Shown here in pieces: positions 10,033-52,725 of a stretch of DNA of 64,000 nucleotides. The notes below the pieces were generated by a model that worked only from the letters and a program-made list of their open reading frames with translations, made no database searches and had not been told where the DNA came from. The DNA is from Naegleria gruberi (lineage: Eukaryota): the NCBI GenBank assembly GCA_000004985.1, contig GG738870.1, one strand, 5' to 3'. Each line of letters opens with the position of its first letter. The stretch's first letter is position 1. The position numbers and the translations under genes are program-made.

Positions 10033-10985
10033 TTAGAAACACTTTCTGTGAACGATACCTGGACCGGCATCCTCATATTCTTCCTTTGTGATCCACATCT
10101 GCTGAAAGGTCGAAAGGCTCGCTAAGATGGAACCACCAATCCAGACAGAGTATTTTCTTTCTGGTGGAGCAACAACCTTAATCTTCATAGAGGCTGGAGC
10201 CATAGCAGTCAATTCCTTGGTCATTCTTTCAGCAATACCTTCGAACATGGTAGTACCACCAGACAAGACAACGTTACCGTACAAGTCCTTTCTGATATCA
10301 ATATCACATTTACCAATTGAATTGAAAGTAGTTTCATGAACACCAGCAGCTTCCATACCAATGAAGTTAGGTTGGAACAAGACTTCTGGACATCTGAATC
10401 TTTCATTACCAACAGTAATGACATTACCGTCTGGCAATTCGTATGACTTTTCAACTGATGATGATTCAGCAGCAACCTTCATTTCAGCTTCAAAGTCCAA
10501 AGCAATATAACAGAGCTTTTCCTTAATATCTCTGACAATTTCTCTTTCAGCAGTAGTATTGAATGAGTAACCTCTTTCCATCAAAATCTTCATCAAATAA
10601 TCAGTCAAGTCACGACCAGCCAAATCCAATCTCAAAATAGCGTGTGGCAAAGCATAANNNNNNNNNNNNNNNNNNNNNNNNNNNNNNNNNNNNNNNNNNN
10701 NNNNNNNNNNNNNNNGGTGATGCCAGATCTTTTCATATCATCCCAATTGGTAACAATACCGTGTTCAATTGGATACTTCAAAGTCAAGATACCTCTCTTT
10801 GATTGAGCTTCATCACCAACATAGGCATCCTTGTTACCCATACCAACCATAATTGATTTTTGCTTTGGTCTACCAATAATTGAAGGGAAGACAGCTCTTG
10901 GAGCATCATCACCAGCAAAACCAGCTTTACACATACCAGAACCGTTGTCAACAACGAGGGCTTGAACGTCTTCACAGAAGGACAT
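10033..10985 (-). CDS. Actin (conventional, highly conserved). The CDS is interrupted by a 58-N assembly gap that hides about 60 codons and breaks the frame.
   Basis: N-terminal part [41 protein letters not shown]...[16 protein letters not shown] (ATG at 10983..10985). C-terminal part [20 protein letters not shown]...[37 protein letters not shown]...IVHRKCF, with stop TAA at 10033. The C-terminal track ORF actually starts at a TTG; the real frame continues into the gap. Confidence 0.95.
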
Positions 10986-29465: not shown

Positions 29466-32337
29466 CTAGTTCTGTTCAGTGTTTGGACGAGTTTGGTTCG
29501 GGCTAAGTGGTTGGGACAGCTGTTGCCTTTGGTAAGCAGAAGTGTATTTTTTGTTTTTGATGAAGGAGTCGGTGGGACGATTGTACCATGATGAATTTTT
29601 GTAGCAGTTACTAACATATACTGCGAGAGCTTTGTAGATATCTAGGGCCACAGCCTTGGGGAGTCGTTTGTGATTGGCCCAAATGGACCAATTATGCTTT
29701 GTGCATCGACCGTCATATTCAATGTTAAGGCAATTTGGAATGGAAGATTCAGGTGGGAAACGGATCTTGCTTAGGTTGTATTTATGAGAGATATCGTCCC
29801 AAGTGGCATATAGTTCTTGCTTTTCAGGTAAGCATTTTGGACAGGATTGGAAGACATGGGTCCAGGTTTCTTCCTTGTGACATATGTCACATTCACTATT
29901 AATGCCTAGATATATGGCATGGTGTAGGTTGTAAAATAGTAGACGTTGTTGGTAGTACGAGAGTTGGTGGTTTCTCCAAAGAGACAACACACAGTGGTGC
30001 CAGTTGAACTCGTTGTCAAGTTGGCCCATTATTGTTATTTCTTTTTTTTTACGTTCATTGTTTAGAACGAGTTGTCTGATGTTTTGGACAGGTTTGTGAC
30101 TATTGCGGTGGCACAACACCCATCCACTTTCGGTGGATTTGAAGTATAAATTCAATTCTTTCATAGTAATACTAGTTTGTTTCCATAAAGAATCTGTTGC
30201 ATCATTGTTGGGTTGTTTCATCATGTTTCTAGCTATATTTCTGGTTAAGGGAGATGTAGAATTAACAAATCTGCATACAGCTGCCATTCTCTCAACGCTA
30301 GAGATGTCTACAGGAGACATCAGCCCCATTCCTCCTTGCTGTACATCACCATAGATGATAGCCTTGGATAGTTTGAGGTTGCATCCTATTTTGGATTTAA
30401 TTGTTACACTAATTTTAGTTTCTAAACTCTGTAAAGTGGATTGAGAGACAGCATCTACACTGGAGAGGTATCTGGGTACGGAAAGTACCTTTGATAACAA
30501 TACAGTTCTAACTGTATTGAGTCTGAGATGTCTGGGTCTGAAATTATTAAGTCGGGAGTTAATCTTATCTATCAATTTATCTTGAGAGGGCGACCATTTC
30601 AGGTTATTAAGAAGTCTGGAACCAAGATATTCGAGGGTATCTTTAGGGTTGTTGATATTGACGTTATTAAGGAATACTTTGGCGGTAGACTTTTTACCAG
30701 ATGCAGTGACACCAAATACTTTGCATTTATGAGTAGCAAAGTGCATGCCTAATTGGTTGGCAGTTGAGTTGAGTTTGTGGAGGATGTTTGTCATTTCGTT
30801 GGATGATTCTGAAAGGACAATGATGTCATCTGCATACAACAACATTACAATTTTGTCTCCTAATAGAGAGACTCCTTTAAAGCCATCAACGATACTCGTG
30901 ATGGCATTGAAATAAATATTGAACACAAGTGGACTCAATGGGTCTCCTTGTGGGACTCCAAAAGTAGCATCAAACGCCGGTGATGTGGAACCATTAGCAA
31001 ACACTTTCACAGAATGTTCACTAATCATATTCATGATTAAATCGCATACTGATTGATTGAAACCTTGATATTTCAAGATTTCTTTCAGTTTGCTATGGAC
31101 AACGCTGCCATATGCATTTTTAATATCAAGGGTGCACATAAATAAAGGTTTCTTTTTGTGCCTGTAGTTGGCAACGACTGATTTCACTATCACGAGCTGG
31201 TCTGTCGTGGATGCTAGTCTTCTGAAGCCTCTTTGGGCTGGATGAATTAAATTATCCTTTTCCACCCTTTCCATGAGGTGGTAATTGACGTACGAAGAAA
31301 AAATTCTGTAAATAATTGGTAGAACTACTATAGGTCTAAAATCTGATAGACGTTTAGGGCAATTGGTTTTAGGTAAGGGAAGTAATAACCCCTCTTTCCA
31401 AGAGGACGGAATGGGATTTCCATCCACAAGGATCTTGTTGAAAGCTTGGCAGACTATGTCTAATGCCTCATCATTCATGCTCTTAAATACCAACATTGGG
31501 ATTTTGTCCCATCCGGGCATTGTATGTTTCATCTTTCCAATAATATTGGAGAGAGAACTTACACAGGCAGGTGGGATTTTGAACCCATTAAGGGAATCTA
31601 TGGATTGATAGTTTTGTAGGTTTAGTTTGGTAGATCCTAGATCAGTATTGAACATTTTGTTGAAATGTTCAAACACATTATCTGGGACGGATTCAACATC
31701 AAACACTGAACTTGAGTTCCTTTCTTTTTTAAATGCATATCTATAGGGAGTGTTGAGTTTGAGGTTGTTAACTGCAATTTTGAATGCTTCTTTTCTTTGT
31801 TNNNNNNNNNNNNNNNNNNNNNNNNNNNNNNNNNNNNNNNNNNNNNNNNNNCCCAAAATACAAATTAATATTGAGATCTCCAAGTATGAAAATGTGCTCC
31901 GAGTGAAACATGCATTCTGTAACTAGATCTGTAACTTTTGAAAGGATCTTGTGAAATTCACTTGAGACTCGGTGGACACCATACCAGTTGATTATATTGA
32001 TGATACCATCACTTGTTTCCAATTTTAGGCATGTCAATCTGCCTTGATAGAGTTCTTCAAATGATAGTACCTTTCTTTGAAGAGTACCTTTGATAATCGT
32101 AATGACACCGGCTGCTTTATCATCCTTATTACAGTGTGATCCAAATATGGAGCACGGTTGAAAGAATTTGGCAGCTTTTGAAACTTGATCCTTGAATTCA
32201 TTGTGTGACCAATGAGTTTCTTGGACATTCACTACATTAAGTCCTTCTCTATTAATGTGTTGGAGTAGAATGGCTTGTTTGTCTAGAGAGAAGGACGACA
32301 GATTACAAGAGGCCATTCTAATGCGAGGGGAGACCAT
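29466..32337 (-). CDS. LINE ORF2 protein (APE endonuclease, RT, zinc knuckle; about 960 aa, split in the track by the 31802..31851 gap)
   Basis: See the mobile_element entry. The frames of the two track ORFs differ only because of the arbitrary gap length. Confidence 0.8.
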
Positions 32338-35055: not shown

Positions 35056-35554
35056 TGAATGTCATTTCAGAATTTACATTAAAATAATTACAATTAAATG
35101 TTCAAGATAGAAATTTGAAGTCTCTTCGAAACTATTAGGTTAATAATTTATTCATTCCATTTATTTAGAGTGTGAAATATAAGGAATATCCTTTAACTAT
35201 TAAGGAACTTTGAACGGATGTGTATATTAATAAACAGTGCAGCCCCTACCAATTTCTGACCTTCCTCCTTCACTACTGGGTGTATAATCTTAACACAATT
35301 AAATTAGCACATGTCCACCTTGTTAAGGCAGGCACATTTTGTATTACTGGGGATTTATGTTAGGCAAAATCGCCTTATCAGAATGGAAGGAACCTATTTT
35401 GTCTCCTCCTTGGTCTTCTAGAACCACTAAAACACTAGACACAGCACCAGATCGCGTTTCATCAACAACTTCAAATCGTTGTTTAACATCCATGGAACCT
35501 TCTCTCAACAACCACACGAAAAAAAAACAGATGATTCTTCATCGTCATCATTCC

Positions 35555-38500
35555 ATGAAAAACCTCTGCGCATTGCCACTGCTACTAATATTATGCTTTC
35601 AAACAGTATTGCTATTCTTCCATTCATCATGCATTCAGCCAGTCAGAGGTGAAACATGTTTTGGAATTGCATCGAGCAGTTCAAAAACTTGTTCTGGAAG
35701 AGGTGTTTGCACACCAGATAATTTGTGCACATGTAATGTGGATTCATCATTGGGTTCTTCCTCTCCCTATTCTGGATTGAACTGTGAAGTAGATTTGTGT
35801 TTTCCTAATGCAATTATTTCTTATAATTGCAATGGAAATGGACAGTGTGAAAATGGTGTTTGTAAATGTAAGGAGGGAACTTCTGGATTCATGTGCCATT
35901 TGAATAGTACCAAATTGATGTGTTTTGGTGTGAGTGGAGGTGATTCAAGAGTTTGTTCTGGTCATGGAAAATGTTTGGACACGAACGTGTGCTCATGCCA
36001 AGATGGTTATACAGGAACTGAATGTCAAATTCCACTATGTTATGGTATTCCATCAACTTTGACATCAAGCGTTTGCTCTGGTAAAGGTACATGCAAGGGA
36101 CAAGATACATGCGAATGTCAATCAGGTTTTTCTGGAGCTAATTGTGAAGTACTTGGTTCAGTATCTTCGCAAGGCTCATCTATTGCAATTCCAGCATCAT
36201 TTTGTGGATCAATAATTGATAGTGATAACAGAACATGTAATGGAAGAGGAAAATGTATTGCCAATGACACATGTCTATGTATGGAAGGTTACAATGACCA
36301 TGACATGTGTCAGAGTACATTCTGCTTTTCAATTCCACAATATGATGCACTGGTTTGCAGTGGACATGGCAACTGCATCGATTACAATACATGTAATTGT
36401 ACTTCTTCTGGAAATTCTTCATTGAACTTTATTGGAAATGAATGTGAAATAGTTCAATGTTTAGGAAGAAATTTCCATTTTTACAATAGCACAGATTCAA
36501 ATGTTTGCAATGGAAATGGTTTCTGTTCCTCTACCAATGATGGTTGCATTTGTAAGGATGGTTATTACGGAGATGCATGTGAACAATTTTCCTGTTTTGG
36601 TATTTCATCAACAAGTGAAATTTCTTGTTCTGGAAATGGACAATGTTTAGATATTGACACTTGCTCATGCTACTCAAATTTACAACAAGGTTATTGGAGT
36701 GGAGAAAATTGTGATATCTGTGATGAAAATTACTCTGGAACGCATTGTAACGAAACAGTAACTTGTCAATCTGAAACTTTTTGTAATCTTTTAGGATCTT
36801 GCTTTAACAATACATGTCAATGTGAAGAACAATACTCGGGACCATCCTGTAGTTTGTGTCAGGGTGGTTTCTATGGTCCATTCTGTAACCATAGCTGTTC
36901 CAGAGTGGACACATGTCATGGACATGGAGAATGTTCAAGAGATGGAATTTTCTGTGAATGTGATCAATCTAATGAGGATGGTTATTGGGATGATTTGTCA
37001 ATGTGTCAAAAATGTAAGAATGGATATTTTGGATCAAGCTGTTTATTGAGAATCGGTGAAAGTTTCGGTTTAAATTCATTGGGAAATGAAATTGTAATTC
37101 CATTAGTGATTCGTCCAAATAATTTGCAGAATTTACTGAATTGCTCTTTGATATTGGTTTTGGAAAGTAGAAGAATGCTTGGATCCTTCCCTGAATGCTG
37201 GATTGATTCGAATAATATGTTGAGAATTACCATTCCAAAAGATTCGACATTTTCTCCAATTCTTAATTCTGATAGAATTGTTATAATTCCAAGTGGTTTT
37301 GAAAATGGTATTCAGAAAAACGAAACCATTTCCCTTCCTTTTGATTCTATCAATACGAAACTTGTCCTTCCAGTTGCCAAAATCTATTCGAATTCAACTT
37401 ATATTCTTCCAAATAGTGATTTAACTTTAATTGGTTCAAATTTACTAAGAATTGAAAGAGAAAGAAATCTGACATTTGAATGGTCTTTGAAGAGTAGTGA
37501 TTCTGATTTTGCCTTATTTCAATCGAATTTGAATTCAAGAATTTCGAGTGGAAAATTTGGTCAACTGACAATTACAAAATCTGACATTCCATCAACTGTT
37601 ACTACATTCCAGATCCAATTGATTGTTAGAAATCAAATTAATAATATTTCCAGTAATCCTACTCATATGACATTCACTGTATTGAAATCTACAACTTTAC
37701 AACAAGTTTACAATGGAGCTTACAATTTGAAATTCAATTTACCAACTCAAATTCTTTATGTACATAATGACATGTTACCATACAAGTTAAAATACTCTCT
37801 ATTACAAGATAATTCACCTATTTCACTTCCAAACTCTAGTTATTCCATTCAATTTTCAATTAGTCCAACACCTTCGGATAACACTTTCGTTACTTTACAG
37901 AATTCGAATGGTATTTTAACAATTTCCTCAGCGTATAACTATGACAATCAGAATAATGTTTATGAAGGATTCGATGGTCAAGTGTTTAACTCTTCCAAGT
38001 TTTATCAAATTATTGGAACTGTCACTCATGTGCCAAGTGGAAAAATTGTCACTCAAAAATCAATCAAATCATTCTTTATTAACAGAAATAGTGGAGCGAG
38101 ACCTGATTTTGATACTGGTAGTCTAAATCCTCTTCCAACACAAGCAGGTCCCGCAGCCATAACCATCCTAACCAATGGACACACTTTTGATTCAGTTGAC
38201 TGGGATTGTTTCGAATGGTCTGGAGTTGGTGGAAAGTGCAGTAATGAATGGATGGCAGCAATTGCAGCATCCAAAGATTCCAACATCCTAAACGTTCCAC
38301 TCGACACTTTTTTCCTTGCTAAGAATCCTCTTTACGTCAGAGCTAAGGTTGTGATTGCTGGCATTCCCTATTATCTCCAAAGCTCAGTAACCCCATCTCA
38401 GGGATTTGGTTTCAAGACTTTGAATGGAGCAACTTTGTACAGTATCATTGCTGGAATGCAGTTGGCCAAAATTGATCGAACCAATTCTCACACAGCTGTC

Positions 38501-39202
38501 TATTCTTGGATGGATTACCAATTTAAGGATACTGTGAATGGAGCCACACTTACTTATGAAGTTAGAGATCAAGATAATAACTTATTAACGCCAACATCGT
38601 CATATATTACACTGGATACTAATCAGAGAAAGTTTACAATTTCTGGTTCAAATATTCCAACAAGTGTTAAAGTATTGAAAATCTCAGTTCGTTTTACAGT
38701 TCCTAATTTTACCAATTTTAAATATAGAGCTTATCTTTATTTGGTTCCAGATGCAATTACCCAACCTAGTCCAACATCAGTGTTGAATTATACTGTTTTG
38801 GAAAATGGATTGAGAAAGTATACGTTAAATTATCAATTGACCAAAACATATGTTGCTGCCATGTCATCCATTTCATTAAAAATTGGAAGTCATAAGATTA
38901 GTATTGCCAATGTCGGTCCAAGTCAACTTGTGAAATTTATACTTCCACCCCTCTTGGATGCCAGCTCAATAATTGCTGATGTGACATATGTCGATAATAG
39001 ATATGTCGGTGGTGCTAGCTCCATTACACAACAATTCACATTACATTCTCTACCTGCCGAAAGTCAATCATCTGATTCTTTTATTCGTTCCATGCAAGAA
39101 TCCATTCGAACAGATGCCACAACTTATTTAGGTACTAATTTTGTAATGTTAATAATGAATATTAGATATTTGGGTGAGGAATATGATTTCCCTACCATGT
39201 AA
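35555..39202 (+). CDS. Secreted or surface EGF/tenascin-repeat protein (about 1215 aa from the signal-peptide Met). About 15 Cys-rich EGF-like modules plus a large Cys-poor C-terminal domain.
   Basis: The track ORF starts at a TTG (35339). Signal peptide MKNLCALPLLLILCFQTVLLFFHSSC begins at the ATG at 35555..35557 (an alternative ATG lies at 35531). Repeated CSGRGVC..C.C..G..G..C modules are like those of the 11200..17703 receptor. No kinase, and no clear TM. Confidence 0.75.
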   Translation: MKNLCALPLLLILCFQTVLLFFHSSCIQPVRGETCFGIASSSSKTCSGRGVCTPDNLCTCNVDSSLGSSSPYSGLNCEVDLCFPNAIISYNCNGNGQCENGVCKCKEGTSGFMCHLNSTKLMCFGVSGGDSRVCSGHGKCLDTNVCSCQDGYTGTECQIPLCYGIPSTLTSSVCSGKGTCKGQDTCECQSGFSGANCEVLGSVSSQGSSIAIPASFCGSIIDSDNRTCNGRGKCIANDTCLCMEGYNDHDMCQSTFCFSIPQYDALVCSGHGNCIDYNTCNCTSSGNSSLNFIGNECEIVQCLGRNFHFYNSTDSNVCNGNGFCSSTNDGCICKDGYYGDACEQFSCFGISSTSEISCSGNGQCLDIDTCSCYSNLQQGYWSGENCDICDENYSGTHCNETVTCQSETFCNLLGSCFNNTCQCEEQYSGPSCSLCQGGFYGPFCNHSCSRVDTCHGHGECSRDGIFCECDQSNEDGYWDDLSMCQKCKNGYFGSSCLLRIGESFGLNSLGNEIVIPLVIRPNNLQNLLNCSLILVLESRRMLGSFPECWIDSNNMLRITIPKDSTFSPILNSDRIVIIPSGFENGIQKNETISLPFDSINTKLVLPVAKIYSNSTYILPNSDLTLIGSNLLRIERERNLTFEWSLKSSDSDFALFQSNLNSRISSGKFGQLTITKSDIPSTVTTFQIQLIVRNQINNISSNPTHMTFTVLKSTTLQQVYNGAYNLKFNLPTQILYVHNDMLPYKLKYSLLQDNSPISLPNSSYSIQFSISPTPSDNTFVTLQNSNGILTISSAYNYDNQNNVYEGFDGQVFNSSKFYQIIGTVTHVPSGKIVTQKSIKSFFINRNSGARPDFDTGSLNPLPTQAGPAAITILTNGHTFDSVDWDCFEWSGVGGKCSNEWMAAIAASKDSNILNVPLDTFFLAKNPLYVRAKVVIAGIPYYLQSSVTPSQGFGFKTLNGATLYSIIAGMQLAKIDRTNSHTAVYSWMDYQFKDTVNGATLTYEVRDQDNNLLTPTSSYITLDTNQRKFTISGSNIPTSVKVLKISVRFTVPNFTNFKYRAYLYLVPDAITQPSPTSVLNYTVLENGLRKYTLNYQLTKTYVAAMSSISLKIGSHKISIANVGPSQLVKFILPPLLDASSIIADVTYVDNRYVGGASSITQQFTLHSLPAESQSSDSFIRSMQESIRTDATTYLGTNFVMLIMNIRYLGEEYDFPTM

Positions 39203-39796
39203 AAATATCATCAACTACATACCTTTAAATCCTCATGAGGATATGAAACAAATTCATTCTTTGGTGTTTCTTCCGAATAAATCAAAATTATGGAAATGTT
39301 CAGGTGTTTGTTTACAACATCAACATCAGTCAACCAAGATTTCTACCTCTACATTATCAGATGGGTGTTCAATCCATGTACTATTCAGCTCCTGTATACG
39401 AAAGAAAGATTGAAGTGATGAATATATCAAAAATCAACACCATTCATCTATGTTTACAGAGATTAGAAATATTTATAACAGCTTGACAGATACAGTTCAG
39501 TGGTTGAATGAGTTTTAAACAATTTCTTGGCTGAGAGCATTTCTTAATCATTTCCTCAGAAATGCTCTCAGCCAAGAAACGATTATTCGAAAGTTTAACC
39601 AACTATCACTCAACCATTGGCATTACCACCAAATCCTTTCTCTCCTTTAACTCAATCCATCCTGCACATTGTCACCTCGCACATTTGCTTACAAAATATT
39701 TAAATTCCACCAAAATCCAGAACATCTGCAACAATAAAAAATTCAAAACTTGTTCGATAGAAGAAAAGTATTCGGAAAATTAAAACACATTAAACA

Positions 39797-40498
39797 ATGC
39801 ATCGCTACGTTCTACTCTTGAGAGGAATCAATGTCGGAGGAAGTAAATCCATCAAAATGGCTGATTTGAAAAAGACGCTGAGTAATATTAAATTTAAGCC
39901 TTCTGATGATAATAATAAGTCATCATCAAATAATTCATCAAATACTTCATCATTGAATAATTCTAATAATTCTGATGATTCTGCTGGTGCGGTTGATAAT
40001 ATTCAAAAATTGCAAAATATTAAAAGTTATTTAGCGAGTGGCAATGTAATTTTCGATTTGAATTTAAAATTGCTTTCCAATGATGAGAGAAGACTGGAGG
40101 AGGAAATTACCAATATTCTGATGAAGGAATTTACCTTTGATGTACCAGTAATGATTAGACATGCCACAGAATTTCATCAAATTATTGCCAATAATCCATT
40201 CTACTCGGTGAAGGAGAAGAAGATTGATGATTTGTACATTTGCCTGTTGATTTCAAAACCACAAGGTGAATTGGTGGAGAACATGATGAAGGATAATAAG
40301 GATTCCTATTCACCTGATGAATTTGAAATTGTGGATTCAACAGATGCTGCTGATGCTACTTGTTGCATTTACCTTCGATTGAAAAGTGGTGCTGCAAAAA
40401 CTAAATTGACCAATAACATGTTGGAGAAAAAGTTCAAAGTGAATGCAACAAGTAGGAACTGGAAAACAATGTTGGAATTGAAGAAGTTACTACAGTAA
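39797..40498 (+). CDS. DUF1697-family protein (a bacterial-type domain) with an inserted Asn/Ser-rich low-complexity loop, 233 aa
   Basis: N-terminus MHRYVLLLRGINVGGSKSIKMADLKK matches the DUF1697 hallmark (Y.ALLRGVNVGG.NK..MAEL). An internal SGNVIF and a C-terminal ATSRNWKTMLELKKLL also fit the family. The NNKSSSNNSSNTSSLNNSNNSDD insert looks eukaryotic in style. Confidence 0.6.
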   Translation: MHRYVLLLRGINVGGSKSIKMADLKKTLSNIKFKPSDDNNKSSSNNSSNTSSLNNSNNSDDSAGAVDNIQKLQNIKSYLASGNVIFDLNLKLLSNDERRLEEEITNILMKEFTFDVPVMIRHATEFHQIIANNPFYSVKEKKIDDLYICLLISKPQGELVENMMKDNKDSYSPDEFEIVDSTDAADATCCIYLRLKSGAAKTKLTNNMLEKKFKVNATSRNWKTMLELKKLLQ

Positions 40499-40699
40499 TT
40501 AACTACAGTTACAAGTCGGCAACAATTTGCATTGTGTTTGATGTCCTTAGTTCACATCGGCTGGTGGTTATATACATAATTGGACAACTTTAAAGCAAAA
40601 AGAGTCGAGTACGAAAGAGGAAAGGTTTTTCGCATTAACACTTGGGGTTTTTATTGAAATAAGATTTCAAGAGTCTTCTGTTTTTGGGGGTGATGTAGT

Positions 40700-41680
40700 T
40701 TATTTGAAAATGATAAACTTTCCTTTTGGATTGGACTTTTTAAACTCAATTTCCTCGAACTTGTTGTGTGAAAACCTTACTCGATAGTTTGGCATGTTAT
40801 TATTGCTGCTTGATGAAGATCTCCTTTTCTTTGAAACCTTCTTGTCATCATTATATGATGTAAAGTTAGAAAAACTAGATTCTGGTTGATGGAAAGATAT
40901 GCAATATGATAATTCTTCATTATTCGAAACTAATTGTTTCTTCATTGGAGAAGAGGAAGCTTTCATTTTCTGCTTTTTAGCAATTTTGCTAGGACTGCCA
41001 GTATACGATAATGAACCATTGAATGGTTTCATACCGTTGCTGTTATTGCATTGGAGGTGTAAATCAGGTTGTTGTGAATTTTCCAAACTAGGAAGGATAA
41101 CGAAATTGGAGGAATCAGGAACAGATGTAATCGGTGTGCTGGATGGTTCCCACACGTTATTGCCGGCAAGAAGTGGAGAGGTTGTTGTGGTTGAGTATTG
41201 ATTCTCATTGTTTGATGAGAAACTATTGAATAATGTATTAGAATTGCTACATGCACTAGTTGTGGTAGTAGTAGTAGGGGAAGATGAAGTTGAAGATTGG
41301 GTGATGGTTCTAGCATTGAATTGAAATTCATTGGTAGTGGAGGAAAGTTTACTCCAAACTAAACCTAATGTGGATGGCACATTTCTCAACTCGAGATCAA
41401 TGAGTTGATGAATATAACTTTCATCGAGAGTGATCATGTCTGATGGTGAAGAGATGGTGGATTGGATCATTTGGCATTCTTGAGGTTTTTGAGGATGAAA
41501 AGTACATGAATTATTGGAAGAATTGAAAGGTTTAGTCGAGGAATCTTCAACAACTTGATCGAGCAAAGACATGAAATCATGTCTGTTCATCAAGTCAATT
41601 AGCACTTCATTGGTCACTTCATCAACAATACTATTACTAGCACTATGATTAGCGAACAACATCAAGTTGGCAGCTGACAT
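40700..41680 (-). CDS. Ser/Thr/Asn-rich low-complexity protein (326 aa), unknown function
   Basis: ATG at 41678..41680. Long S/T/N tracts. No recognisable domain. Confidence 0.4.
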   Translation of the reverse strand: MSAANLMLFANHSASNSIVDEVTNEVLIDLMNRHDFMSLLDQVVEDSSTKPFNSSNNSCTFHPQKPQECQMIQSTISSPSDMITLDESYIHQLIDLELRNVPSTLGLVWSKLSSTTNEFQFNARTITQSSTSSSPTTTTTTSACSNSNTLFNSFSSNNENQYSTTTTSPLLAGNNVWEPSSTPITSVPDSSNFVILPSLENSQQPDLHLQCNNSNGMKPFNGSLSYTGSPSKIAKKQKMKASSSPMKKQLVSNNEELSYCISFHQPESSFSNFTSYNDDKKVSKKRRSSSSSNNNMPNYRVRFSHNKFEEIEFKKSNPKGKFIIFK

Positions 41681-43065
41681 TCTATTTTACGTTATTTTTT
41701 TTTGCTTGGTTGGTGTAGACTGGACAAATGGGAGCATGTTTTATAATCCTCTTCAATATTTGGTGGGTTTGACTCAAAGATGTCAAGAAAGATTGTGGCG
41801 ACAATATATATGGAAACAAACCATTGTAGCTAGACACCCAACAACAACATTGGTATTCGTATTGCCGTTAGGTTGTCAGATTGTCGTAATGAAATTGTCA
41901 TGAACAAAGAGAACGCCCATTGATCCTTGTAATGAAAAAAATCATTGAAAATTGACAAATTGTTTAACTGGGGGATTTGATCCTGATTTATGTTGATGCC
42001 AAACAATTAATTTCAATGAATTTGGTAGTTACAAATTGCATATCAGCATTATCTTGCGCAATCAAAAGATTGATATAGTGAGAGTTGTTGCCATAAAATC
42101 TGTGGAGATATTGAAGTAAGTTACAGGAACAGACTAGAATTGACAATTTTTAAAAGACACGTAACACAATTTTGATTTGCAATCAATCTTATGGAAAGGT
42201 TGTTCACTGGTTTTGAATTATTGTTGTCTTCAGTAAGAGAACAACAATCGATAGAGAACTAGAGTATCCGAAATTTACAATTTACTACGACAATTTAGAG
42301 CATCTGAAAAAGAATGGAAACAATTACAACATGTTCCATTTTCGAATGTTGAAACCAAATCCTTTGACCTTAGTCGTAATCCATTCACACAAATCCTAAA
42401 ACATGTTTTTATTGGCGGAAAGTCAATTGTAAAGTCTTCAAAGATACCGATATGAAATCGTACTTTCAAACGCATTTTCAATGTCTAAAACCAATGGGAG
42501 ACATCTTTGAAAATGATGTTTACAACGGTAGTGTGTATTTATTGACAGATTTGAATAACACTTGACAGTAGTGCACTATGATATGCGTTGATGGTAAATT
42601 ATTTGTCACCATTTCAATCAAAACAACAAATCTAGAGCGAAAACGAACTAATTTGCTACTTTCCTTCATTGTGTAATTTGCCCCTGATTGTTCATAGCTC
42701 TTTATCCTGAGTTTCGTACAAAAACTGGTTTCGCATATAGGACAAGTACACGATGACAGTGAAAGTTGGGGAATTTGATTTAGCCTCTCAAGAATCTAAT
42801 AACATATTCGATTAGATGTTGCTATTTTATGGTTGAAACACATCTCTTTGAGTTATTCCTGTGTAATCATTTCACATAATGGAAAGTTGGATGTTTAGAG
42901 GATCATCCTAATCAAATTACAATAAGTTTTTGATCATCTACAATTAATTATCGTCATGGTTCACTATTAATACCTCAAAAACAATCTACAGTTTTTTTTC
43001 TGAAACAAACTCTAAGATGTTGGACGACGTCAAAAATCAAACTGTCAAAAATTAACAGCAAAAAA

Positions 43066-45474
43066 ATGAAGAATTTATTCAAAAGAAAGAAGGACTCATC
43101 ACAAAGTGGTCAGTCATCTGCTTCATCATCTACATCAACGCTGGAAATTAGTGGTCCTTTCAATGTCAGATTAGAACATCACGTTGACTTTGACAGAGAA
43201 TTTGGTCTGTCAGGTGTTCCTAAAGATTGGGATTTATCAAATATTCAAGGAATTAACTATACTGTTGATGATGTTAATTCTGAACAGCAACAACAACAAC
43301 AACAATCATTAGATAGAACTATGAGTGAACCTGTCATGGTGTCAACATCAACAACAAATAATAATTCATCAAATTCTACAAGTGTTGCTACTCCTAGTAC
43401 TTCTGCATCATCATTATTTTTCAACAAACTCAGGAATAGAAACAAGGCTGCTCATCAATCCCTTTCAACCTCACCTGTCAATATTTCAACAAATTCTACA
43501 CCAACTTTGACACCAGAAATTGATTCAACAAGTCCAACAACACCTACAAGCACTTCCATTGGTGCTAATTCTAATAATTTAGCAAATTCAAATGTTACAG
43601 AAATGACAATTTCTACCAATTCAGTTTCAACTCCTCAACATGATCGTCAACATTCGCAAAGTTTCTTTTCTAAAATATTTACAAAAAAGAATAGTACAGC
43701 TACACCTCAATCAAATGATGAATCATCAGTTAAAAATGGTCAATTTGTTATGGGATTTACAAATATGAAAAAAACTCAAGCTGGTTACTATGTAGAAGTT
43801 TCACAATTAGAAAATTCAAATCAAAATTCGAAATTTAAAAAGGACAAGTTGTTAATTGATTTGATTAGTCCAGAAAATCCATTTCGTCTATTCACCAAAA
43901 TGAAGAAAATTGGTACAGGAAGTACAGCTGATGTTTACAAGGCAATTCACGTACCAAGTGGAAAGAAAGTTGCCATCAAAGTCATGCCACTGACAAGTGT
44001 GAAAAACACCAATTTTGACATGATTGAAAATGAAATTTTCATGATGAAACATGCCTGCAAATCTTATAATAACATTTTTGAATATGATATTACAAGTGAC
44101 AAGACGTTGATGGTTCAGTATTTTGGAACTTACATGACAGTGAATAATGGAATTTATGAACATATTGGAAGATATTTGGCAGCTTCAAAGAGAAAGAATT
44201 ATCATGATTCAGCTGCTAACAAACCAAACAAGCAAAACGAGAAACCAACACAAGCAAATAATCCATACATGCAACAACAAGTGATTAACAATTCACCGGC
44301 AGCTAAGGAATTGGAAAATATGGCAGAACATCAAAGAAAATCAAATGATGAATTGTGGGTCACTATGGAATACGTTTCTGGGGGTAAATTAACTGATTTA
44401 CTCCACACTAGATTTATGGAAAGTGAAATTGCTGCAATGTTACAACCAATTTTGAAGGGTTTACACATGCTTCATGTAAAATATGGCGTCATTCACAGAG
44501 ATGTCAAATCAGACAATGTACTCATTACAAAAGATGGTAAAATCAAGTTGGCCGACTTTGGTTTTTGTGCTGAAAATACTGGAAGAAGAAGATCAGTTGT
44601 GGGAACACCTTATTGGATGAGTCCTGAAGTTGTTTCTGGAGCTGAATATGATGAAAAGTCAGATGTTTGGTCATTGGGTATTTTAACATTGGAACTGGCA
44701 GATGGTGAAGTGCCACTCATTGAACATCCACCAATCAAGGCACTCTTCTTGATTCGTTCACAAGATCCACCAACCTTTAAGAGTTCATCAGAGTGGTCTG
44801 ATGTATTCCATGATTTCTTGAAGAGATGTTTAGAAAAGGATCCAACCAAACGTGCCACCATTGATGAATTATTGGAACATGAATTTATCAAGAAGGCCTG
44901 TAAATTAGATTTCCTAGCTCCACTCTTGACTAAGATTAGAGCTGAAAAGAAGAAGAAGAATATTAAGGAGAGTGATATTGGTCTCCAAGTGATAAAGCTC
45001 AGAACAGAGGAAGAGCAAGAGGAAGAAGAATATCAGGAACAAAAGAAAAAGAAGAAGGGTATTGGTATTATGGGATTGGTGACATCCTTCTCTGAAATGC
45101 AATCATCTTCATCGAATAATAATGCGGATGATGCTGATAATGCTGAACAAGGTGATTATGATTTGGGAGGTGGAGGTGGTAATTCAGGAATTGATGCCTA
45201 TGATCCAGATTTAATTGATGATCCAGACATGTATTGTGGAGGAGGTGATTATGGTGGATATGATTATGATCAACCACCACAAGAAGAACAACAACAGGAA
45301 GAAGGAGAAGGAAATGAAAATAATGGAGATTGGAATCATGAAGATGCAGTTATAATTGATGACCAAGATCAGAAAGATGAACATCCAGAACAAGAAGGAG
45401 AACATGCTGAAGAAGAGGATGACCATTATGGATCTGGACAATACTATGATAATGATGATGAAATGTTGGTATAA
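43066..45474 (+). CDS. p21-activated kinase (PAK/STE20 family). N-terminal CRIB/PBD motif, then a Ser/Thr/Asn-rich linker, then a kinase domain with a roughly 75-aa insertion, then an acidic Gly/Asp/Tyr-rich tail.
   Basis: ATG at 43066. CRIB ISGPFNVRLEHHVDFDREFGLSGVPKDW. Kinase motifs IGTGSTADVYKA, VAIKVM, HRDVKSDNVLI, DFGFCA, GTPYWMSPEV. Poly-Q run near the CRIB. Confidence 0.85.
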   Translation: MKNLFKRKKDSSQSGQSSASSSTSTLEISGPFNVRLEHHVDFDREFGLSGVPKDWDLSNIQGINYTVDDVNSEQQQQQQQSLDRTMSEPVMVSTSTTNNNSSNSTSVATPSTSASSLFFNKLRNRNKAAHQSLSTSPVNISTNSTPTLTPEIDSTSPTTPTSTSIGANSNNLANSNVTEMTISTNSVSTPQHDRQHSQSFFSKIFTKKNSTATPQSNDESSVKNGQFVMGFTNMKKTQAGYYVEVSQLENSNQNSKFKKDKLLIDLISPENPFRLFTKMKKIGTGSTADVYKAIHVPSGKKVAIKVMPLTSVKNTNFDMIENEIFMMKHACKSYNNIFEYDITSDKTLMVQYFGTYMTVNNGIYEHIGRYLAASKRKNYHDSAANKPNKQNEKPTQANNPYMQQQVINNSPAAKELENMAEHQRKSNDELWVTMEYVSGGKLTDLLHTRFMESEIAAMLQPILKGLHMLHVKYGVIHRDVKSDNVLITKDGKIKLADFGFCAENTGRRRSVVGTPYWMSPEVVSGAEYDEKSDVWSLGILTLELADGEVPLIEHPPIKALFLIRSQDPPTFKSSSEWSDVFHDFLKRCLEKDPTKRATIDELLEHEFIKKACKLDFLAPLLTKIRAEKKKKNIKESDIGLQVIKLRTEEEQEEEEYQEQKKKKKGIGIMGLVTSFSEMQSSSSNNNADDADNAEQGDYDLGGGGGNSGIDAYDPDLIDDPDMYCGGGDYGGYDYDQPPQEEQQQEEGEGNENNGDWNHEDAVIIDDQDQKDEHPEQEGEHAEEEDDHYGSGQYYDNDDEMLV

Positions 45475-49807: not shown

Positions 49808-50625
49808 TTAAAATTACATCGAGTAAGGTAAAATTTATCTTTGTTGTGAATTGGAAATTATCGAAGCAGCATCTAAATAATTTGAAACACAATTTTCGAT
49901 ACAAATCTTGTCATCTATAATGTTTCATGTCAATAAATTATAAATTCATCATTTTCATCAATAATTAATAGTTCCGATAATTATCCAAAGTAATAATATG
50001 AATTCATTCCGATAAACAAAATTCCGAAGAAATTAAAATTTCATCCTCACCATCATAATACTAACATTTAACTAATCCTTTAGTATTTGGATTTGCAACG
50101 CAAGCTTCAAAGCATTTTTTAGTCAAATCAATAATTTGTTTAGTGACTTGAGTTTTCATCACCAATTCCAATTCTTGTCTTTGCGCTTCCGACATTTTTT
50201 TTTCAAGTTGGGTTTAATTTCTAACATCATAAATAATATTTAATAAGTATTAAATTAATAATCAATTTAATAATAATTAATATTAAGCAACACATTAGTC
50301 AATACGTTCATGATTGAATTCATTTATTTCATCATCAAATCCAAAAAAAGATTACAAAAAAATTTAAAACTAACGCCTCTTTGCATCGTTATAAAATTTT
50401 TATTACATGCTCTTTTCATATTATCACCAAATAATTTAACTACAAACACCATTATTTAAATATCAACAAAGCATTAATTCAATATATCAACAAGATAAAC
50501 GTTAAATATCGGTGATTGGCGCCATTTTAAAAAAACATTTTGAAAAAAAAGAAAATAAGATTCTTTTTTTTTCTTTTGCAATAACATCATATATTATTAA
50601 TTTAAACAACCTCTAAGTGAGCATT

Positions 50626-52725
50626 ATGCTACAAAAGAATAGTCATCAACAACAGCTGCAGCAGCAACATACACATACAACAAATCCAACACCTTCCATT
50701 CTTAGGAGGGTTAATAATCCCCTACGTCCACCATCAACACCACCAAATAACAATAATAATAATAGGTTTTCCTCTCCTTCCTCATCTATAACTACACCAC
50801 CACCTCCTTCTCTAAATTCACCACGAGTTGCAAATTCTTCAATAACACCTCCTCCTCCACCTAGAAGTGGAGTCACACCTTCCCCTCCTAATCCAAATTT
50901 ATTACTTCCAGGAGAAACAAAAATTAATAATAATATTGTCGTTAAAAGGAAGAGGAATAGACGTAGTAAAAATTTCGATACAGTCACAACACCCTCCCCT
51001 ACGAGGTACATCTATCCACAGCCAACATTTCCGACATGTTATTATCCAATTCCTCAAATACCTGTTCATCCAATTCCATCACTTCCTCTAGGTATTAAGG
51101 GACTTTATTCAAATCCCTACTCTGCAACAAATTATTATCCTACTCATCCTTCTTTTCCTCTTCAACAACAACAACTTCAACAACAGCAACAACCTAGGTA
51201 CAATACCACAATACCAGCAACACCACCATCAAAACAAGACTCACATAATAAAACCTCAGCAAGCAAAGAGGAAGTTCTGGCAGAGGGTAACTGTATAATA
51301 GACGATGAAAATGGTTTTAATACTTCCGATATTTGTATGTCTAACGATTCGGAAAATTCAGGGCATAAGAGGAGAAGTATTGTGACCAAGTTGAGGCACC
51401 TTGTCAACAAGACAGGTGAATGTTTGACAAAAACAAGACTTAAGGAAATAGAGAATAGAGAAAAAGAGGAAAAGGAAGAAATACTTGCTTACTTTAAAGA
51501 TGACTCGCCAAAACCAATTCCCGAGAAGGCCCTACTGCCAGAAAATAAGGATAGAAAGAAAATTTTGGATTTGGAATTTTCTCAATTAGTATCCATCTCT
51601 AGGTCAGCATTTTCCCATCTTGCAAGAGAGTATTCAAAAATTGGGATTGATATTTCAATGAATAGATTTGTAAAACCAGAAAAATCATCGGAATCTACCA
51701 TTCCAAGTCTCTTAAGTGATACATCCCACTTCTTCTCAATGGTAGAGTCTTTGGTGGAGGCAAGTAGGAAGGAAATACCACAACAAGATCAAATGGGATC
51801 GACAGTTTTAAATGTTCTTAAAACAATGGAGTCTGTATTGTTGGACGATACAGACACGAGAATACTTTTAAGCCATCCTTCAACATCTGTCTATCCAATT
51901 GAAAATGATTCGGAGGTATATTATGAAGATATTGTACCACAATATCTCTTTTATAATAATAATAATAGTAATGGAATTAAGGAAACAGACTCATTGAATA
52001 GCAGTTTAATTGCAGTAGAAAGATCAGATTTTGCCCAACAAGCAGACGTGAATTGTAGCTCAATAACTATTCAAACAGATGATAAGTCTGTTGAGGAGGT
52101 TTCCCTACAGACCTCACCTATTGAATCAAGTTCTGTCGATATTCAAACAGATGAAGAGCACACGACTAGATCATCAATAGATATTCAAACAGAACATGCT
52201 GTGAATCAGTTATTATCGACTGATGTTCAAACAGAACCAGTTAATTTTGCTGCCCCTAGGAAGCAACATGTCACTATTGAGACCCAAACTGATAGTGTGG
52301 AGAAGATTTGTATTTCTACAATGACTGATGAATTACCAGTTGAAAAATCAGTAATTGAAAAACCAGTAATTGAAACACCAGTCGTTACACCAGAGGTAGA
52401 ACAGGAATCCAACTCTTCAAAAAAGAGGAAAAAGGATGATACCTCTTCATCTTCATCATCAAGCTCGGAAGACTCAGAATCGGAGGAAGAACAAACAAAA
52501 CCAAAACGAAAACTCAGGAAACGAACTATCATCACAACCAAAACAACAACTAAGAAGAAAGATGAACCTGTCTATTTCGTTGAAAAAGTTGTCAAACATG
52601 ACAATATTGATGGCAAGCATTGGTTCTATGTGAAATGGGAAGGTTTTTCTTCTAGGTTTAACTCTTGGGTTGAAGAACATGATATTCTTGATAAGTCCTT
52701 AATACGGAAATATATTAAAAAATAA
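50626..52725 (+). CDS. Chromodomain protein (about 699 aa). Pro/Asn/Gln-rich N-terminus, repeated ...IQTD/IQTE motifs, and a C-terminal chromo domain.
   Basis: The track start at 50617 is a GTG. The first ATG is at 50626. C-terminus EPVYFVEKVVKHDNIDGKHWFYVKWEGFSSRFNSWVEEHDILDKSLIRKYI fits the chromo-domain consensus (Y.VEKI...Y.VKWKG....TWEPE..L). Confidence 0.65.
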   Translation: MLQKNSHQQQLQQQHTHTTNPTPSILRRVNNPLRPPSTPPNNNNNNRFSSPSSSITTPPPPSLNSPRVANSSITPPPPPRSGVTPSPPNPNLLLPGETKINNNIVVKRKRNRRSKNFDTVTTPSPTRYIYPQPTFPTCYYPIPQIPVHPIPSLPLGIKGLYSNPYSATNYYPTHPSFPLQQQQLQQQQQPRYNTTIPATPPSKQDSHNKTSASKEEVLAEGNCIIDDENGFNTSDICMSNDSENSGHKRRSIVTKLRHLVNKTGECLTKTRLKEIENREKEEKEEILAYFKDDSPKPIPEKALLPENKDRKKILDLEFSQLVSISRSAFSHLAREYSKIGIDISMNRFVKPEKSSESTIPSLLSDTSHFFSMVESLVEASRKEIPQQDQMGSTVLNVLKTMESVLLDDTDTRILLSHPSTSVYPIENDSEVYYEDIVPQYLFYNNNNSNGIKETDSLNSSLIAVERSDFAQQADVNCSSITIQTDDKSVEEVSLQTSPIESSSVDIQTDEEHTTRSSIDIQTEHAVNQLLSTDVQTEPVNFAAPRKQHVTIETQTDSVEKICISTMTDELPVEKSVIEKPVIETPVVTPEVEQESNSSKKRKKDDTSSSSSSSSEDSESEEEQTKPKRKLRKRTIITTKTTTKKKDEPVYFVEKVVKHDNIDGKHWFYVKWEGFSSRFNSWVEEHDILDKSLIRKYIKK

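What the first reader, a model, noticed from the sequence alone, without database searches (positions are those of the whole stretch)
39797..40498. Bacterial-type DUF1697 gene in a eukaryotic chromosome arm, a candidate horizontal acquisition
The N-terminus (YVLLLRGINVGG...KMADL), the central SGNVIF and the C-terminal T.RNW.T..ELKKLL reproduce the signature of the mostly bacterial DUF1697 family. The gene carries an Asn/Ser-rich low-complexity insertion and has AT-rich codon usage like its neighbours, so it looks like an old, domesticated transfer, not contamination.
Basis: partly seen in the sequence, partly recalled or inferred. Interest (0 to 1): 0.5.

Follow-up and report, generated by a model that had tools for sequence, protein, structure and literature searches.

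The report
Bacterial DUF1697 gene in Naegleria
The amoeba Naegleria gruberi carries an intact gene of a bacterial family of unknown function (DUF1697), most likely acquired once from a Bacteroidota-like bacterium before the genus diversified; this is a sound but ordinary case of bacterium-to-protist gene transfer, and the gene is already in the databases.

Summary

The horizontal-transfer reading is supported and can be sharpened. Copies also exist in N. lovaniensis, in N. fowleri and on a contig from an unidentified eukaryote. Quartet tests and likelihood placement group these copies together. Their nearest relatives are ~180-aa Bacteroidota-type proteins (30-36% full-length BLASTP identity; 40-45% over matched stretches). 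No other eukaryotic or viral relative appeared.

'Domesticated' holds only in part:
- dN/dS of about 0.2 shows long-term purifying selection.
- The N. fowleri copy has a 32-residue core deletion and a premature stop.
- A 98%-identical N. gruberi-like contig has an 11-bp frameshift.
- Neither expression nor function is known.

A DUF1697 transfer from Bacteroidetes into a ciliate is already published. Verdict: real, a new member of a known kind, low to moderate interest.

The parts
39797..40498 (+). Complete DUF1697 coding sequence (233 aa plus stop). Single exon. Identical to N. gruberi XP_002676686.1 / EFC43942.1 (NAEGRDRAFT_67934).
   Evidence: ORF list and sequence. Pfam PF08002 at 105 bits. 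Exact-sequence look-up. No GTRNGT splice-donor motif in the CDS.
39812..39841 (+). N-terminal family signature LLLRGINVGG (residues 6-15). Contains invariant R9, I11 and N12.
   Evidence: Invariant and nearly invariant columns in the 100-sequence alignment A2.
39896..40012 (+). Insertion specific to N. gruberi (residues 34-72, KPSDDNNKSSSNNSSNTSSLNNSNNSDDSAGAVDNIQKL). It is low-complexity, Asn/Ser-rich and predicted disordered, and sits in a loop between helix 1 and strand 2.
   Evidence: Absent from more than 90% of bacterial homologs, from N. lovaniensis and from P0128. pLDDT is about 51 here against 88 overall. In frame. The L001 relative differs by an in-frame 3-bp indel here.
40037..40048 (+). 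Invariant SGN(V) motif (residues 81-84).
   Evidence: S81, G82 and N83 are invariant in A2.
40265..40275 (+). Site of an 11-bp deletion (GGTGAATTGGT, codons 157-160) in the 98%-identical metagenome relative L001. The deletion shifts the reading frame there. The sequence is intact in this window.
   Evidence: Pairwise alignment of L001 with the window. In L001 the gene was called as two pieces, P0001 (161 aa) and P0122 (71 aa).
40343..40366 (+). Second small insertion specific to N. gruberi (residues 183-190, STDAADAT).
   Evidence: Alignments A1 and A2. pLDDT dips to about 74 in the 181-190 block.
40448..40468 (+). C-terminal family signature TSRNWKT (residues 218-224). Contains invariant R220 and N221.
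   Evidence: Conserved columns in A2.
35339..39202 (+). Context only: upstream eukaryotic neighbour, an EGF-repeat protein (the ORF as listed is 1287 aa).
   Evidence: Pfam EGF_Teneurin E = 6e-24 and EGF_2 E = 2.5e-19.
43066..45474 (+). Context only: downstream eukaryotic neighbour, a PAK/STE20-type protein kinase.
   Evidence: Pfam Pkinase E = 3e-58. Best PDB matches are PAK1 kinase domains at E = 6e-65.

Best explanation
This is a true nuclear gene of Naegleria gruberi that encodes a member of the otherwise bacterial DUF1697 (SP0830-like) family.

Origin. It most likely entered the eukaryotic lineage once, from a Bacteroidota-like bacterium. That happened before N. gruberi split from the N. 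lovaniensis/N. fowleri lineage, and probably before a further, unidentified relative (contig L062) split off. It was then inherited vertically.

Changes in the host. The gene drifted to host base composition. In N. gruberi it gained a disordered Asn/Ser-rich loop and a second small insertion. It stayed under purifying selection for most of its history. It now appears dispensable in some lineages: it is disrupted in N. fowleri and frameshifted in an N. gruberi-like strain.

Mechanism (inferred, low confidence). The product has no N-terminal targeting extension, so it is probably cytosolic. It is a small two-lobed alpha/beta protein built from ferredoxin-like, ACT-like units. The invariant polar residues (R9, N12, S81-G82-N83, R220-N221) most plausibly form a binding or catalytic site for a small molecule, so it would do the same stand-alone job as in bacteria.

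Shown: family membership, fold, eukaryotic integration, grouping of the eukaryotic copies, selective constraint, and the disruptions.
Inferred: direction and single occurrence of the transfer, the donor phylum, the cellular location and ligand binding.

For: Identity and integration. Exact match to N. gruberi XP_002676686.1 on a 418-kb scaffold. Neighbours are eukaryotic. An independent metagenome contig, L001, repeats the gene together with its downstream neighbour at 97.9% identity.

Other eukaryotic copies:
- N. lovaniensis XP_044546048.1 lies between a CFA20 gene and an MTR4 helicase gene.
- The N. fowleri locus FDP41_011050 is syntenic with it, in three assemblies.
- P0128 on L062 lies next to a CTF18 homolog, E = 7e-25, which is a eukaryote-specific gene.

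Distribution. The exhaustive search found 4231 representative clusters. After the Naegleria hits, the best are ~180-aa proteins. The profile of the eukaryotic clade shows a score gap: 338, 325 and 200 bits for clade members, then 197 and below. Of the 20 closest taxon-labelled sequences, 19 are Bacteroidota. The contig of P0290 carries a T9SS Por_Secre_tail gene.

Single origin:
- The eukaryotic clade is recovered by NJ under two distance estimators.
- Quartet support is 93-100%, against a mean of 32% and a maximum of 85% for control bacterial pairs at similar distance.
- ML placement gives likelihood weights of 0.96-1.00 for eukaryote-with-eukaryote positions. The best bacterial branch is 9-16 lnL units worse.

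Constraint. Omega is 0.21 for N. lovaniensis vs N. fowleri (Fisher p = 1.6e-11) and 0.18 for N. gruberi vs L001. All invariant residues are retained.

Precedent. A PF08002 gene in the ciliate Pseudocohnilembus persalinus is listed as a transfer from Bacteroidetes (PMC4614350).
Against: - NJ bootstrap support for the eukaryotic clade is only 56-63%, and 43-51% for the three Naegleria alone.
- The ML placements used my own code, with a rate matrix derived from the Gonnet matrix and NJ reference trees. They are not a standard full tree search.
- N. gruberi is barely closer to N. lovaniensis (132 bits) than N. lovaniensis is to its best bacterial hit (140 bits).
- The N. gruberi and N. lovaniensis loci share no synteny within 10 kb either side.
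- The donor is unresolved. On a phylum-balanced tree the clade's placement is diffuse, and Bacteroidota are not monophyletic in the gene tree.
- The survey of eukaryotes is incomplete. Only top-ranked hits could be inspected, the AFDB library was unavailable, and the ciliate PF08002 protein could not be compared.
- No expression data exist. No function is known for any DUF1697 protein. Bacterial gene neighbourhoods give no clue.
Confidence: 0.78

Rival explanations
1. Independent acquisitions. N. gruberi and the N. lovaniensis/N. fowleri lineage (and the L062 organism) each took up a DUF1697 gene separately from related Bacteroidota prey. The gene would then not be an ancient shared acquisition.
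For: The N. gruberi and N. lovaniensis loci share no synteny. Their identity to each other (46-48%) is close to their identity to the best bacterial hits (44-49% over matched stretches). N. lovaniensis scores 140 bits to bacterial P0290 against 132 bits to N. gruberi. NJ bootstrap support is moderate. The shared-rare-residue test did not discriminate. A ciliate acquired a PF08002 gene independently, so repeated uptake does happen.
Against: Quartets group the eukaryotic copies in 93-100% of cases, well above the controls. ML placement puts each eukaryotic sequence with the others at weights of 0.96-1.00, and bacterial positions are 9-16 lnL units worse. The inferred topology (P0128,(Ng,(Nl,Nf))) is what vertical descent would give. 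The eukaryotic branches are not unusually long: median distance to bacteria is 1.12-1.24 against a bacterial mean of 1.07, so long-branch attraction is not an obvious cause.
Confidence: 0.1
2. Vertical inheritance. DUF1697 was present in an early eukaryote and was lost almost everywhere except Heterolobosea and a few other protists.
For: The eukaryote-wide survey here is incomplete: AFDB was unavailable and only top-ranked hits were seen. At least one other eukaryote, a ciliate, has a PF08002 gene. The gene predates the Naegleria radiation.
Against: No eukaryote-sourced protein other than those of the Naegleria clade appears in the top 120-150 hits of four searches. The eukaryotic clade attaches among crown Bacteroidota-like sequences on a short stem (pendant 0.2-0.3), not on a deep inter-phylum branch. 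The family is very large and diverse in bacteria, with 4231 representative clusters. The ciliate paper's authors report its best hit as Bacteroidetes.
Confidence: 0.05
3. The N. gruberi copy is a neutral relic. It would be an intact-looking but unexpressed or functionless ORF on its way to loss, so not 'domesticated'.
For: The gene is disrupted in N. fowleri by a 32-residue core deletion and a premature stop, seen in three assemblies. It is frameshifted in an N. gruberi-like strain. The N. gruberi protein has acquired two insertions. The conserved Gln before SGN is lost in all eukaryotic copies. The gene lies about 40 kb from telomere-like repeats, among retroelements. No expression data are available.
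Against: The 233-codon ORF is intact and keeps all 9 invariant and 37 of 44 conserved positions after a long divergence. The predicted fold is confident. Omega is 0.18 against L001, though from only six substitutions, and 0.21 in the sister lineage at p = 1.6e-11. The CDS has diverged less than its flanks between the window and L001.
Confidence: 0.15
4. Bacterial contamination or an assembly chimera in the N. gruberi scaffold.
For: Bacterial-type protein family. Single exon. Assembly gaps exist elsewhere in the window.
Against: There are no gaps between 31851 and the end of the window, and the sequence runs continuously into eukaryotic genes on both sides. Composition matches the host, and the low-complexity insertion is of the host's type. 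An independent metagenome contig shows the same junction with the downstream gene. Orthologs lie in eukaryotic context in two other species and several assemblies.
Confidence: 0.01

Closest known systems
SP0830 of Streptococcus pneumoniae (PDB 2hiy), the only solved DUF1697 / PF08002 structure
   Different: Only 24% identity. The N. gruberi protein has a 39-residue disordered insertion and an 8-residue insertion, and it is encoded in a eukaryotic nucleus. Neither protein has a known function.
Bacteroidota DUF1697 proteins, e.g. from Urechidicola, Aquimarina, Fulvivirga and Catalinimonas niigatensis WP_302253766.1
   Same: These are the closest non-eukaryotic relatives: 30-36% full-length BLASTP identity, 40-45% over matched stretches. 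All motifs are shared and the core length is the same, about 180 aa.
   Different: They lack the insertions. They keep the conserved Gln before SGN, which all the eukaryotic copies have replaced. They are bacterial stand-alone genes with variable neighbours.
N. lovaniensis XP_044546048.1 (C9374_007934) and N. fowleri FDP41_011050, named 'DUF1697 domain-containing protein' in UniRef
   Same: Putative orthologs. They group with the N. gruberi protein in the NJ, quartet and ML placement analyses. They are single-exon genes in eukaryotic context.
   Different: They lack the low-complexity insertion. They sit at a different chromosomal location, between CFA20 and MTR4. The N. fowleri copy is truncated by an internal deletion and a premature stop.
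PPERSA_00010290, the 'PF08002 family protein' of the ciliate Pseudocohnilembus persalinus, published as a horizontal transfer from Bacteroidetes (PMC4614350)
   Same: Same family, same proposed donor phylum, and the recipient is likewise a bacterivorous protist.
   Different: The recipient is an unrelated eukaryotic lineage, so this is presumably an independent event.

Membership tests
DUF1697 (Pfam PF08002; SP0830-like) | Score above the Pfam gathering threshold | tested here: met
   105 bits against a 24.4 cut-off, E = 5.4e-30. The match comes in two stretches, split by the insertion.
DUF1697 (Pfam PF08002; SP0830-like) | Conserved signature residues: LLRGINVGG, SGN and TxRNWxT | tested here: met
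   All 9 invariant columns are kept (R9, I11, N12, L24, S81, G82, N83, R220, N221), as are 37 of 44 columns that are at least 80% conserved.
DUF1697 (Pfam PF08002; SP0830-like) | SP0830-like two-lobed alpha/beta fold | tested here: met
DUF1697 (Pfam PF08002; SP0830-like) | Compact stand-alone protein of about 175-190 aa | tested here: met
   The core is about 186 aa once the insertions specific to N. gruberi are removed (residues 34-72 and 183-190). There are no extra domains.
DUF1697 (Pfam PF08002; SP0830-like) | Shared biochemical activity | not testable with these tools
   No function is assigned to the family. NCBIfam, PADLOC and PHROGs gave no match, and bacterial neighbourhoods are not conserved.
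Bacterium-to-eukaryote horizontal gene transfer | Gene physically integrated in a eukaryotic chromosome (not contamination) | tested here: met
   Continuous sequence with eukaryotic genes on both sides. The junction is reproduced in L001. Orthologs lie in eukaryotic context.
Bacterium-to-eukaryote horizontal gene transfer | Eukaryotic sequences nested among bacterial ones in a phylogeny | tested here: inconclusive
   The clade attaches among Bacteroidota-like sequences. On the Bacteroidota-heavy tree the likelihood weight inside Bacteroidota is 1.0, and the best branch outside the Bacteroidota-only ones is 8.8 lnL units worse. On the phylum-balanced, labelled-only tree the placement is diffuse: 0.49 on Bacteroidota-only branches plus 0.45 on a Urechidicola-containing pair. 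No standard rooted ML tree with support values could be built.
Bacterium-to-eukaryote horizontal gene transfer | Patchy, narrow distribution in eukaryotes against a broad one in bacteria | tested here: met
   Only Naegleria species and one unidentified eukaryotic contig appear among the top hits of four searches, against 4231 mostly bacterial clusters. Caveat: only top-ranked hits could be inspected and AFDB was unavailable.
Bacterium-to-eukaryote horizontal gene transfer | Functional retention (purifying selection or expression) in the recipient | tested here: met
   Omega is 0.21 (p = 1.6e-11) for N. lovaniensis vs N. fowleri and 0.18 for N. gruberi vs L001. Expression was not testable. Recent disruptions in two lineages show that retention is not universal.
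ACT domain family (considered because of fold similarity) | Sequence-profile match to ACT models | tested here: not met

The most novel reading that the evidence does not exclude
DUF1697 genes are repeatedly captured from Bacteroidota prey by bacterivorous protists (the Naegleria lineage here, a scuticociliate in the literature) and are kept under selection for long periods. That would imply the protein gives a portable, self-contained benefit to cells that eat or live among bacteria, for example handling a bacterial metabolite or toxin. Its recent decay in the thermophilic pathogen N. fowleri would then reflect a change of lifestyle.
Probability: 0.12. Interest if true: 0.45.

Novelty: new member of a known kind. 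Interest (0 to 1): 0.25.

Why it matters
On its own this adds one well-documented case to the many bacterial genes found in Naegleria and other phagotrophic protists. It also gives a family name to an N. gruberi 'predicted protein'.

Its modest wider value has three parts:
- It shows that a protein of unknown function can stay under purifying selection in a eukaryote across a deep divergence. This suggests DUF1697 has an autonomous activity that needs no bacterial partners, which fits its lack of a conserved operon.
- It gives a small natural series for studying how transferred genes adapt to a host and are later lost: intact and canonical in N. lovaniensis, intact with host-type insertions in N. 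gruberi, frameshifted in an N. gruberi-like strain, and deleted and truncated in N. fowleri.
- The N. fowleri gene model FDP41_011050 should probably be annotated as a pseudogene.

Tried and rejected
- NCBIfam, PADLOC and PHROGs scans gave no match, so no functional name or defence or phage link was obtained.
- Bacterial gene-neighbourhood analysis of 36 loci (70 flanking genes) gave 127 different Pfam families, none in more than 3 genes. It yielded no operon clue.
- A giant-virus or other viral vector was considered. There is no relative in IMG/VR and no BFVD structure at E <= 0.001.
- The metagenome scan with P0128 found nothing above 45% identity, so no further members of the eukaryotic clade turned up.
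- The first word-indexed search missed the N. lovaniensis and N. fowleri orthologs. Absence from that tool's list is not evidence of absence. The exhaustive search and the second and third searches corrected this.
- The first NJ run contained P0128 twice, so its four-way monophyly result was invalid. It was redone.
- The shared-rare-residue test did not discriminate: 5 shared residues for the Naegleria pair against 4 for the best bacterial sequences.
- The first clade-placement test used a taxon set that was 50/56 Bacteroidota-like and so was biased. The balanced rerun gave a diffuse placement, so I do not name a specific donor.
- I considered whether the insertion is an unspliced intron and rejected it. 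It is in frame, has no GTRNGT donor motif, any plausible splice would remove the conserved strand before SGN, and the L001 relative differs there by an in-frame 3-bp indel.
- The AFDB50 fold library was not available.
- The N. gruberi genome paper (PMID 20211133) is not held, so I could not check whether its list of transfer candidates includes this gene.
- The N. fowleri and Naegleria pangenome papers do not mention the gene.

Full report
**1. Observation**

Window 39797..40498 (+) is an uninterrupted 233-codon ORF.
- **Family match.** Pfam PF08002 (DUF1697) matches at E = 5.4e-30, 105 bits against a cut-off of 24.4. NCBIfam has no model for it.
- **Solved relative.** The only solved relative by sequence is 2hiy, matched weakly over the N-terminal motif.
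- **Conserved positions.** In a 100-sequence alignment the protein keeps all nine invariant positions (R9, I11, N12, L24, S81, G82, N83, R220, N221). It also keeps 37 of 44 positions that are at least 80% conserved. Bacterial members average 40.5, with a 5th percentile of 29.
- **Insertions.** Relative to the family it has two insertions, at residues 34-72 (window 39896-40012) and 183-190. The first is 56% Asn+Ser+Thr. It is the only poorly predicted part of an otherwise confident AlphaFold model with mean pLDDT 88.4 and pTM 0.83.

**2. Organism and context**

The protein is identical to Naegleria gruberi XP_002676686.1 / EFC43942.1 (NAEGRDRAFT_67934, UniProt D2VGD1). It is annotated 'predicted protein' and lies on a 418-kb scaffold.

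The window opens with telomere-like (ACCCAA)n arrays at 1-431 and 1140-1591, so the gene lies about 40 kb from a chromosome end.

Its neighbours are eukaryotic:
- an EGF-repeat protein at 35339-39202;
- a low-complexity ORF at 40700-41680 (-);
- a kinase at 43066-45474 whose best solved relatives are PAK1;
- a Myb protein, and reverse-transcriptase and chromodomain ORFs.

No assembly gap lies between 31851 and the end of the window. Gene GC (0.333) and GC3 (0.346) match the host. A 2.9-kb metagenome contig, L001, is 97.9% identical across the gene and its downstream neighbour. Contamination is therefore excluded.

**3. Distribution**

| Search | Query | Main result |
|---|---|---|
| Word-indexed | N. 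gruberi protein | L001's fragment, then ~180-aa proteins at 30-36% identity; the named ones are Bacteroidota |
| Exhaustive HMMER | N. gruberi protein | 4231 clusters; best non-self hit P0126, E = 1.7e-33 |
| Word-indexed | P0126 | N. fowleri FDP41_011050 (P0289) |
| Profile of the four eukaryote-type sequences | Alignment A1 | Clade members at 338, 325 and 200 bits, then a continuum from 197 bits down; all named hits Bacteroidota; no eukaryote-only source |

- P0126 is N. lovaniensis XP_044546048.1, already named 'DUF1697 domain-containing protein' by UniRef.
- P0128 (189 aa) lies on metagenome contig L062 next to a CTF18 homolog (E = 7e-25 to human and yeast CTF18). Its other neighbours are Ser/Thr-rich low-complexity ORFs. 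L062 is therefore from a eukaryote.
- The contigs of two of the closest remaining hits are bacterial. P0290's carries a T9SS Por_Secre_tail protein, and P0002's carries an integrase, AbiEii and DbpA.
- Of the 20 closest taxon-labelled sequences, 19 are Bacteroidota.
- No viral relative exists in IMG/VR or BFVD. The metagenome scan found no further member of the eukaryotic clade.

**4. One acquisition or several?**

The N. lovaniensis and N. fowleri loci are syntenic: PH protein, CFA20, DUF1697, MTR4 helicase, HlyIII. The N. gruberi locus shares nothing with them within 10 kb either side. Raw similarity is also not decisive: N. gruberi scores 132 bits to N. lovaniensis, while N. lovaniensis scores 140 bits to its best bacterial hit. 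I therefore tested the grouping in three ways, using 153 sequences and 180 trimmed columns.
- **NJ trees.** Both distance estimators recover the four eukaryote-type sequences as one clade, with 56-63% bootstrap. The N. lovaniensis + N. fowleri pair gets 100%. One search was flawed by a duplicated sequence.
- **Quartets.** The four-point test groups N. gruberi with N. lovaniensis in 97.6-100% of quartets, N. gruberi with P0128 in 96.5-99.4%, and N. lovaniensis with P0128 in 92.6-97.2%. Control bacterial pairs at similar distance average 32% and reach 85% at most. The eukaryotic branches are not unusually long.
- **ML placement.** I used a reversible rate matrix derived from the Gonnet matrix with four gamma categories, in my own code.

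| Sequence placed | Best position | Likelihood weight | Best bacterial branch (lnL units worse) |
|---|---|---|---|
| N. gruberi | sister of N. lovaniensis | 0.963 (plus 0.037 on the clade stem) | 15.6 |
| N. lovaniensis | sister of N. gruberi | 0.998 | 16.5 |
| P0128 | stem of the two Naegleria | 0.999 | 9.3 |

The topology (P0128,(Ng,(Nl,Nf))) is what a single acquisition followed by vertical descent predicts.

I also placed the clade as a unit on bacteria-only trees. It lands among Bacteroidota-like sequences on a short stem. With a phylum-balanced, labelled-only tree the exact position is diffuse. The donor is therefore 'Bacteroidota-like, unresolved'.

**5. Selection and decay**

| Comparison | Gene | omega |
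|---|---|---|
| N. lovaniensis vs N. fowleri | DUF1697 (dN 0.19, dS 0.93; Fisher p = 1.6e-11) | 0.21 |
| N. lovaniensis vs N. fowleri | MTR4 (control) | 0.06 |
| N. lovaniensis vs N. fowleri | PH-domain protein (control) | 0.20 |
| N. gruberi vs L001 | DUF1697 (six substitutions only) | 0.18 |
| N. gruberi vs L001 | neighbouring gene | 0.13 |

The CDS has also diverged less than its flanks between the window and L001. The gene was therefore maintained by selection for most of its history.

Two lineages nevertheless show recent damage:
- **N. fowleri.** The copy lacks about 32 residues of the conserved core. It also has a premature stop, after which the conserved TTRNW motif still reads in frame. 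The same 134-aa product is on record in three independent assemblies.
- **L001.** The copy has an 11-bp deletion at window 40265-40275. This splits the gene into 161-aa and 71-aa pieces.

The gene thus appears dispensable in at least some settings.

**6. Mechanism**

No DUF1697 protein has a known function.
- Bacterial neighbourhoods are not conserved: 127 families among 70 flanking genes, none in more than 3.
- The PADLOC and PHROGs libraries are silent.

What the data allow is limited. The protein is a stand-alone, two-lobed alpha/beta protein made of ferredoxin-like, ACT-like units. It has a small set of invariant polar and glycine residues. It has no N-terminal extension that could act as a targeting signal, since the conserved first strand starts at residue 2.

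My best guess is a cytosolic small-molecule-binding or small catalytic protein that acts on its own. That would explain why it could work after transfer. This is inference and carries low confidence.

**7. Comparison with what is known, and novelty**

- The gene model is already in NCBI and UniProt, and the N. lovaniensis and N. fowleri orthologs already carry the DUF1697 name.
- Transfer of bacterial genes into Naegleria is a recognised phenomenon, discussed for N. fowleri in PMC8296547.
- A 'PF08002 family protein' of the ciliate Pseudocohnilembus persalinus is published as a transfer from Bacteroidetes (PMC4614350).
- I found no paper that discusses this Naegleria gene. The original N. gruberi genome paper could not be read.

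This is therefore a new, well-supported member of a known kind of event, not a new kind of thing.

**8. Verdict**

'Old' is supported, because the gene predates the Naegleria radiation. 'Domesticated' is supported only in the sense of long-term purifying selection, and recent independent decay tempers it. Interest is low to moderate (0.25).

Noticed in passing
window 1-431 and 1140-1591: Two arrays of about 72-76 copies of the hexamer ACCCAA (that is, TTGGGT on the other strand), 97-98% perfect, at the very start of the window. About 660 bp of unique sequence and an N gap (1090-1139) separate them. They look like telomeric repeats at a scaffold end, possibly with a mis-joined second telomere-bearing piece. 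The DUF1697 gene would then be subtelomeric, about 40 kb in.
   Followed up: partly
window 1090-1139, 2281-3264, 4266-4315, 6017-6066, 10658-10715, 31802-31851: Runs of N (assembly gaps). The very low GC at 2-3 kb and the long 'ORFs' on both strands at about 2262-3402 are artefacts of the 984-base gap.
   Followed up: yes
L064 6001-6480 (N. fowleri VFQX01000007.1); also L065 and L066: The N. fowleri DUF1697 gene model FDP41_011050 (134 aa) looks like a pseudogene. It has a ~32-residue in-frame deletion of the conserved core. It also has a premature stop, after which the conserved ...KFKTSSTTRNWNTILELETL continues in frame. The 134-aa product is identical in three independent assemblies.
   Followed up: yes
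L001 (ENA ERZ929261 k127_478971), equivalent to window 39674-42042: A metagenome contig from an N. gruberi-like organism, 97.9% identical to the window. It carries an 11-bp frameshifting deletion in the DUF1697 gene and a 3-bp in-frame deletion in the low-complexity insertion. An assembly error cannot be excluded from a single contig.
   Followed up: partly
L062 (ENA ERZ27315067 k141_1499168), gene at 5001-5570: A fourth eukaryote-type DUF1697 copy (P0128) from an unidentified eukaryote with GC 0.39. Its neighbours are a CTF18 homolog that appears to be split by an intron (ORFs at 707-1243 and 1270-1899), a GBBH-like_N protein and a 639-aa low-complexity ORF. ML places it just outside the Naegleria pair, so it may come from another heterolobosean. 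The organism was not identified.
   Followed up: partly
window 29466-31883 (-), 31768-32337 (-) and 50617-52725 (+): Retroelement-type ORFs near the gene: a reverse transcriptase (RVT_1, E = 1e-33), interrupted by an N gap at 31802-31851, and a 702-aa ORF ending in a chromodomain. They suggest a repeat-rich subtelomeric region.
   Followed up: no
alignment A2, column before the SGN motif (N. gruberi A80): The Gln in 'YIQSGN' is 94% conserved in bacteria. All three intact eukaryotic copies have replaced it, each with a different residue: Ala in N. gruberi, Thr in N. lovaniensis and Val in P0128. This is either relaxed constraint or a functional shift common to the eukaryotic clade.
   Followed up: no
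P0159 (404 aa, Logan metagenome) and the P0134 cluster (275 aa; Saprospiraceae, Urechidicola and Roseivirga MAGs): Some bacterial DUF1697 proteins carry N-terminal extensions. P0159 has about 250 residues that look like ankyrin repeats by eye. The P0134 cluster has a ~95-residue extension with a hydrophobic segment. Such fusions might hint at the family's function. The domains were not checked with a profile search.
   Followed up: no
P0326 ('Chloroflexota bacterium' MAG) in the tree: A DUF1697 protein labelled Chloroflexota pairs tightly with the Flavobacteriaceae (Urechidicola) sequence, and Bacteroidota are not monophyletic in the gene tree. Either the family moves between bacterial phyla or some MAGs are mis-binned. 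This limits how precisely a donor can be named.
   Followed up: no
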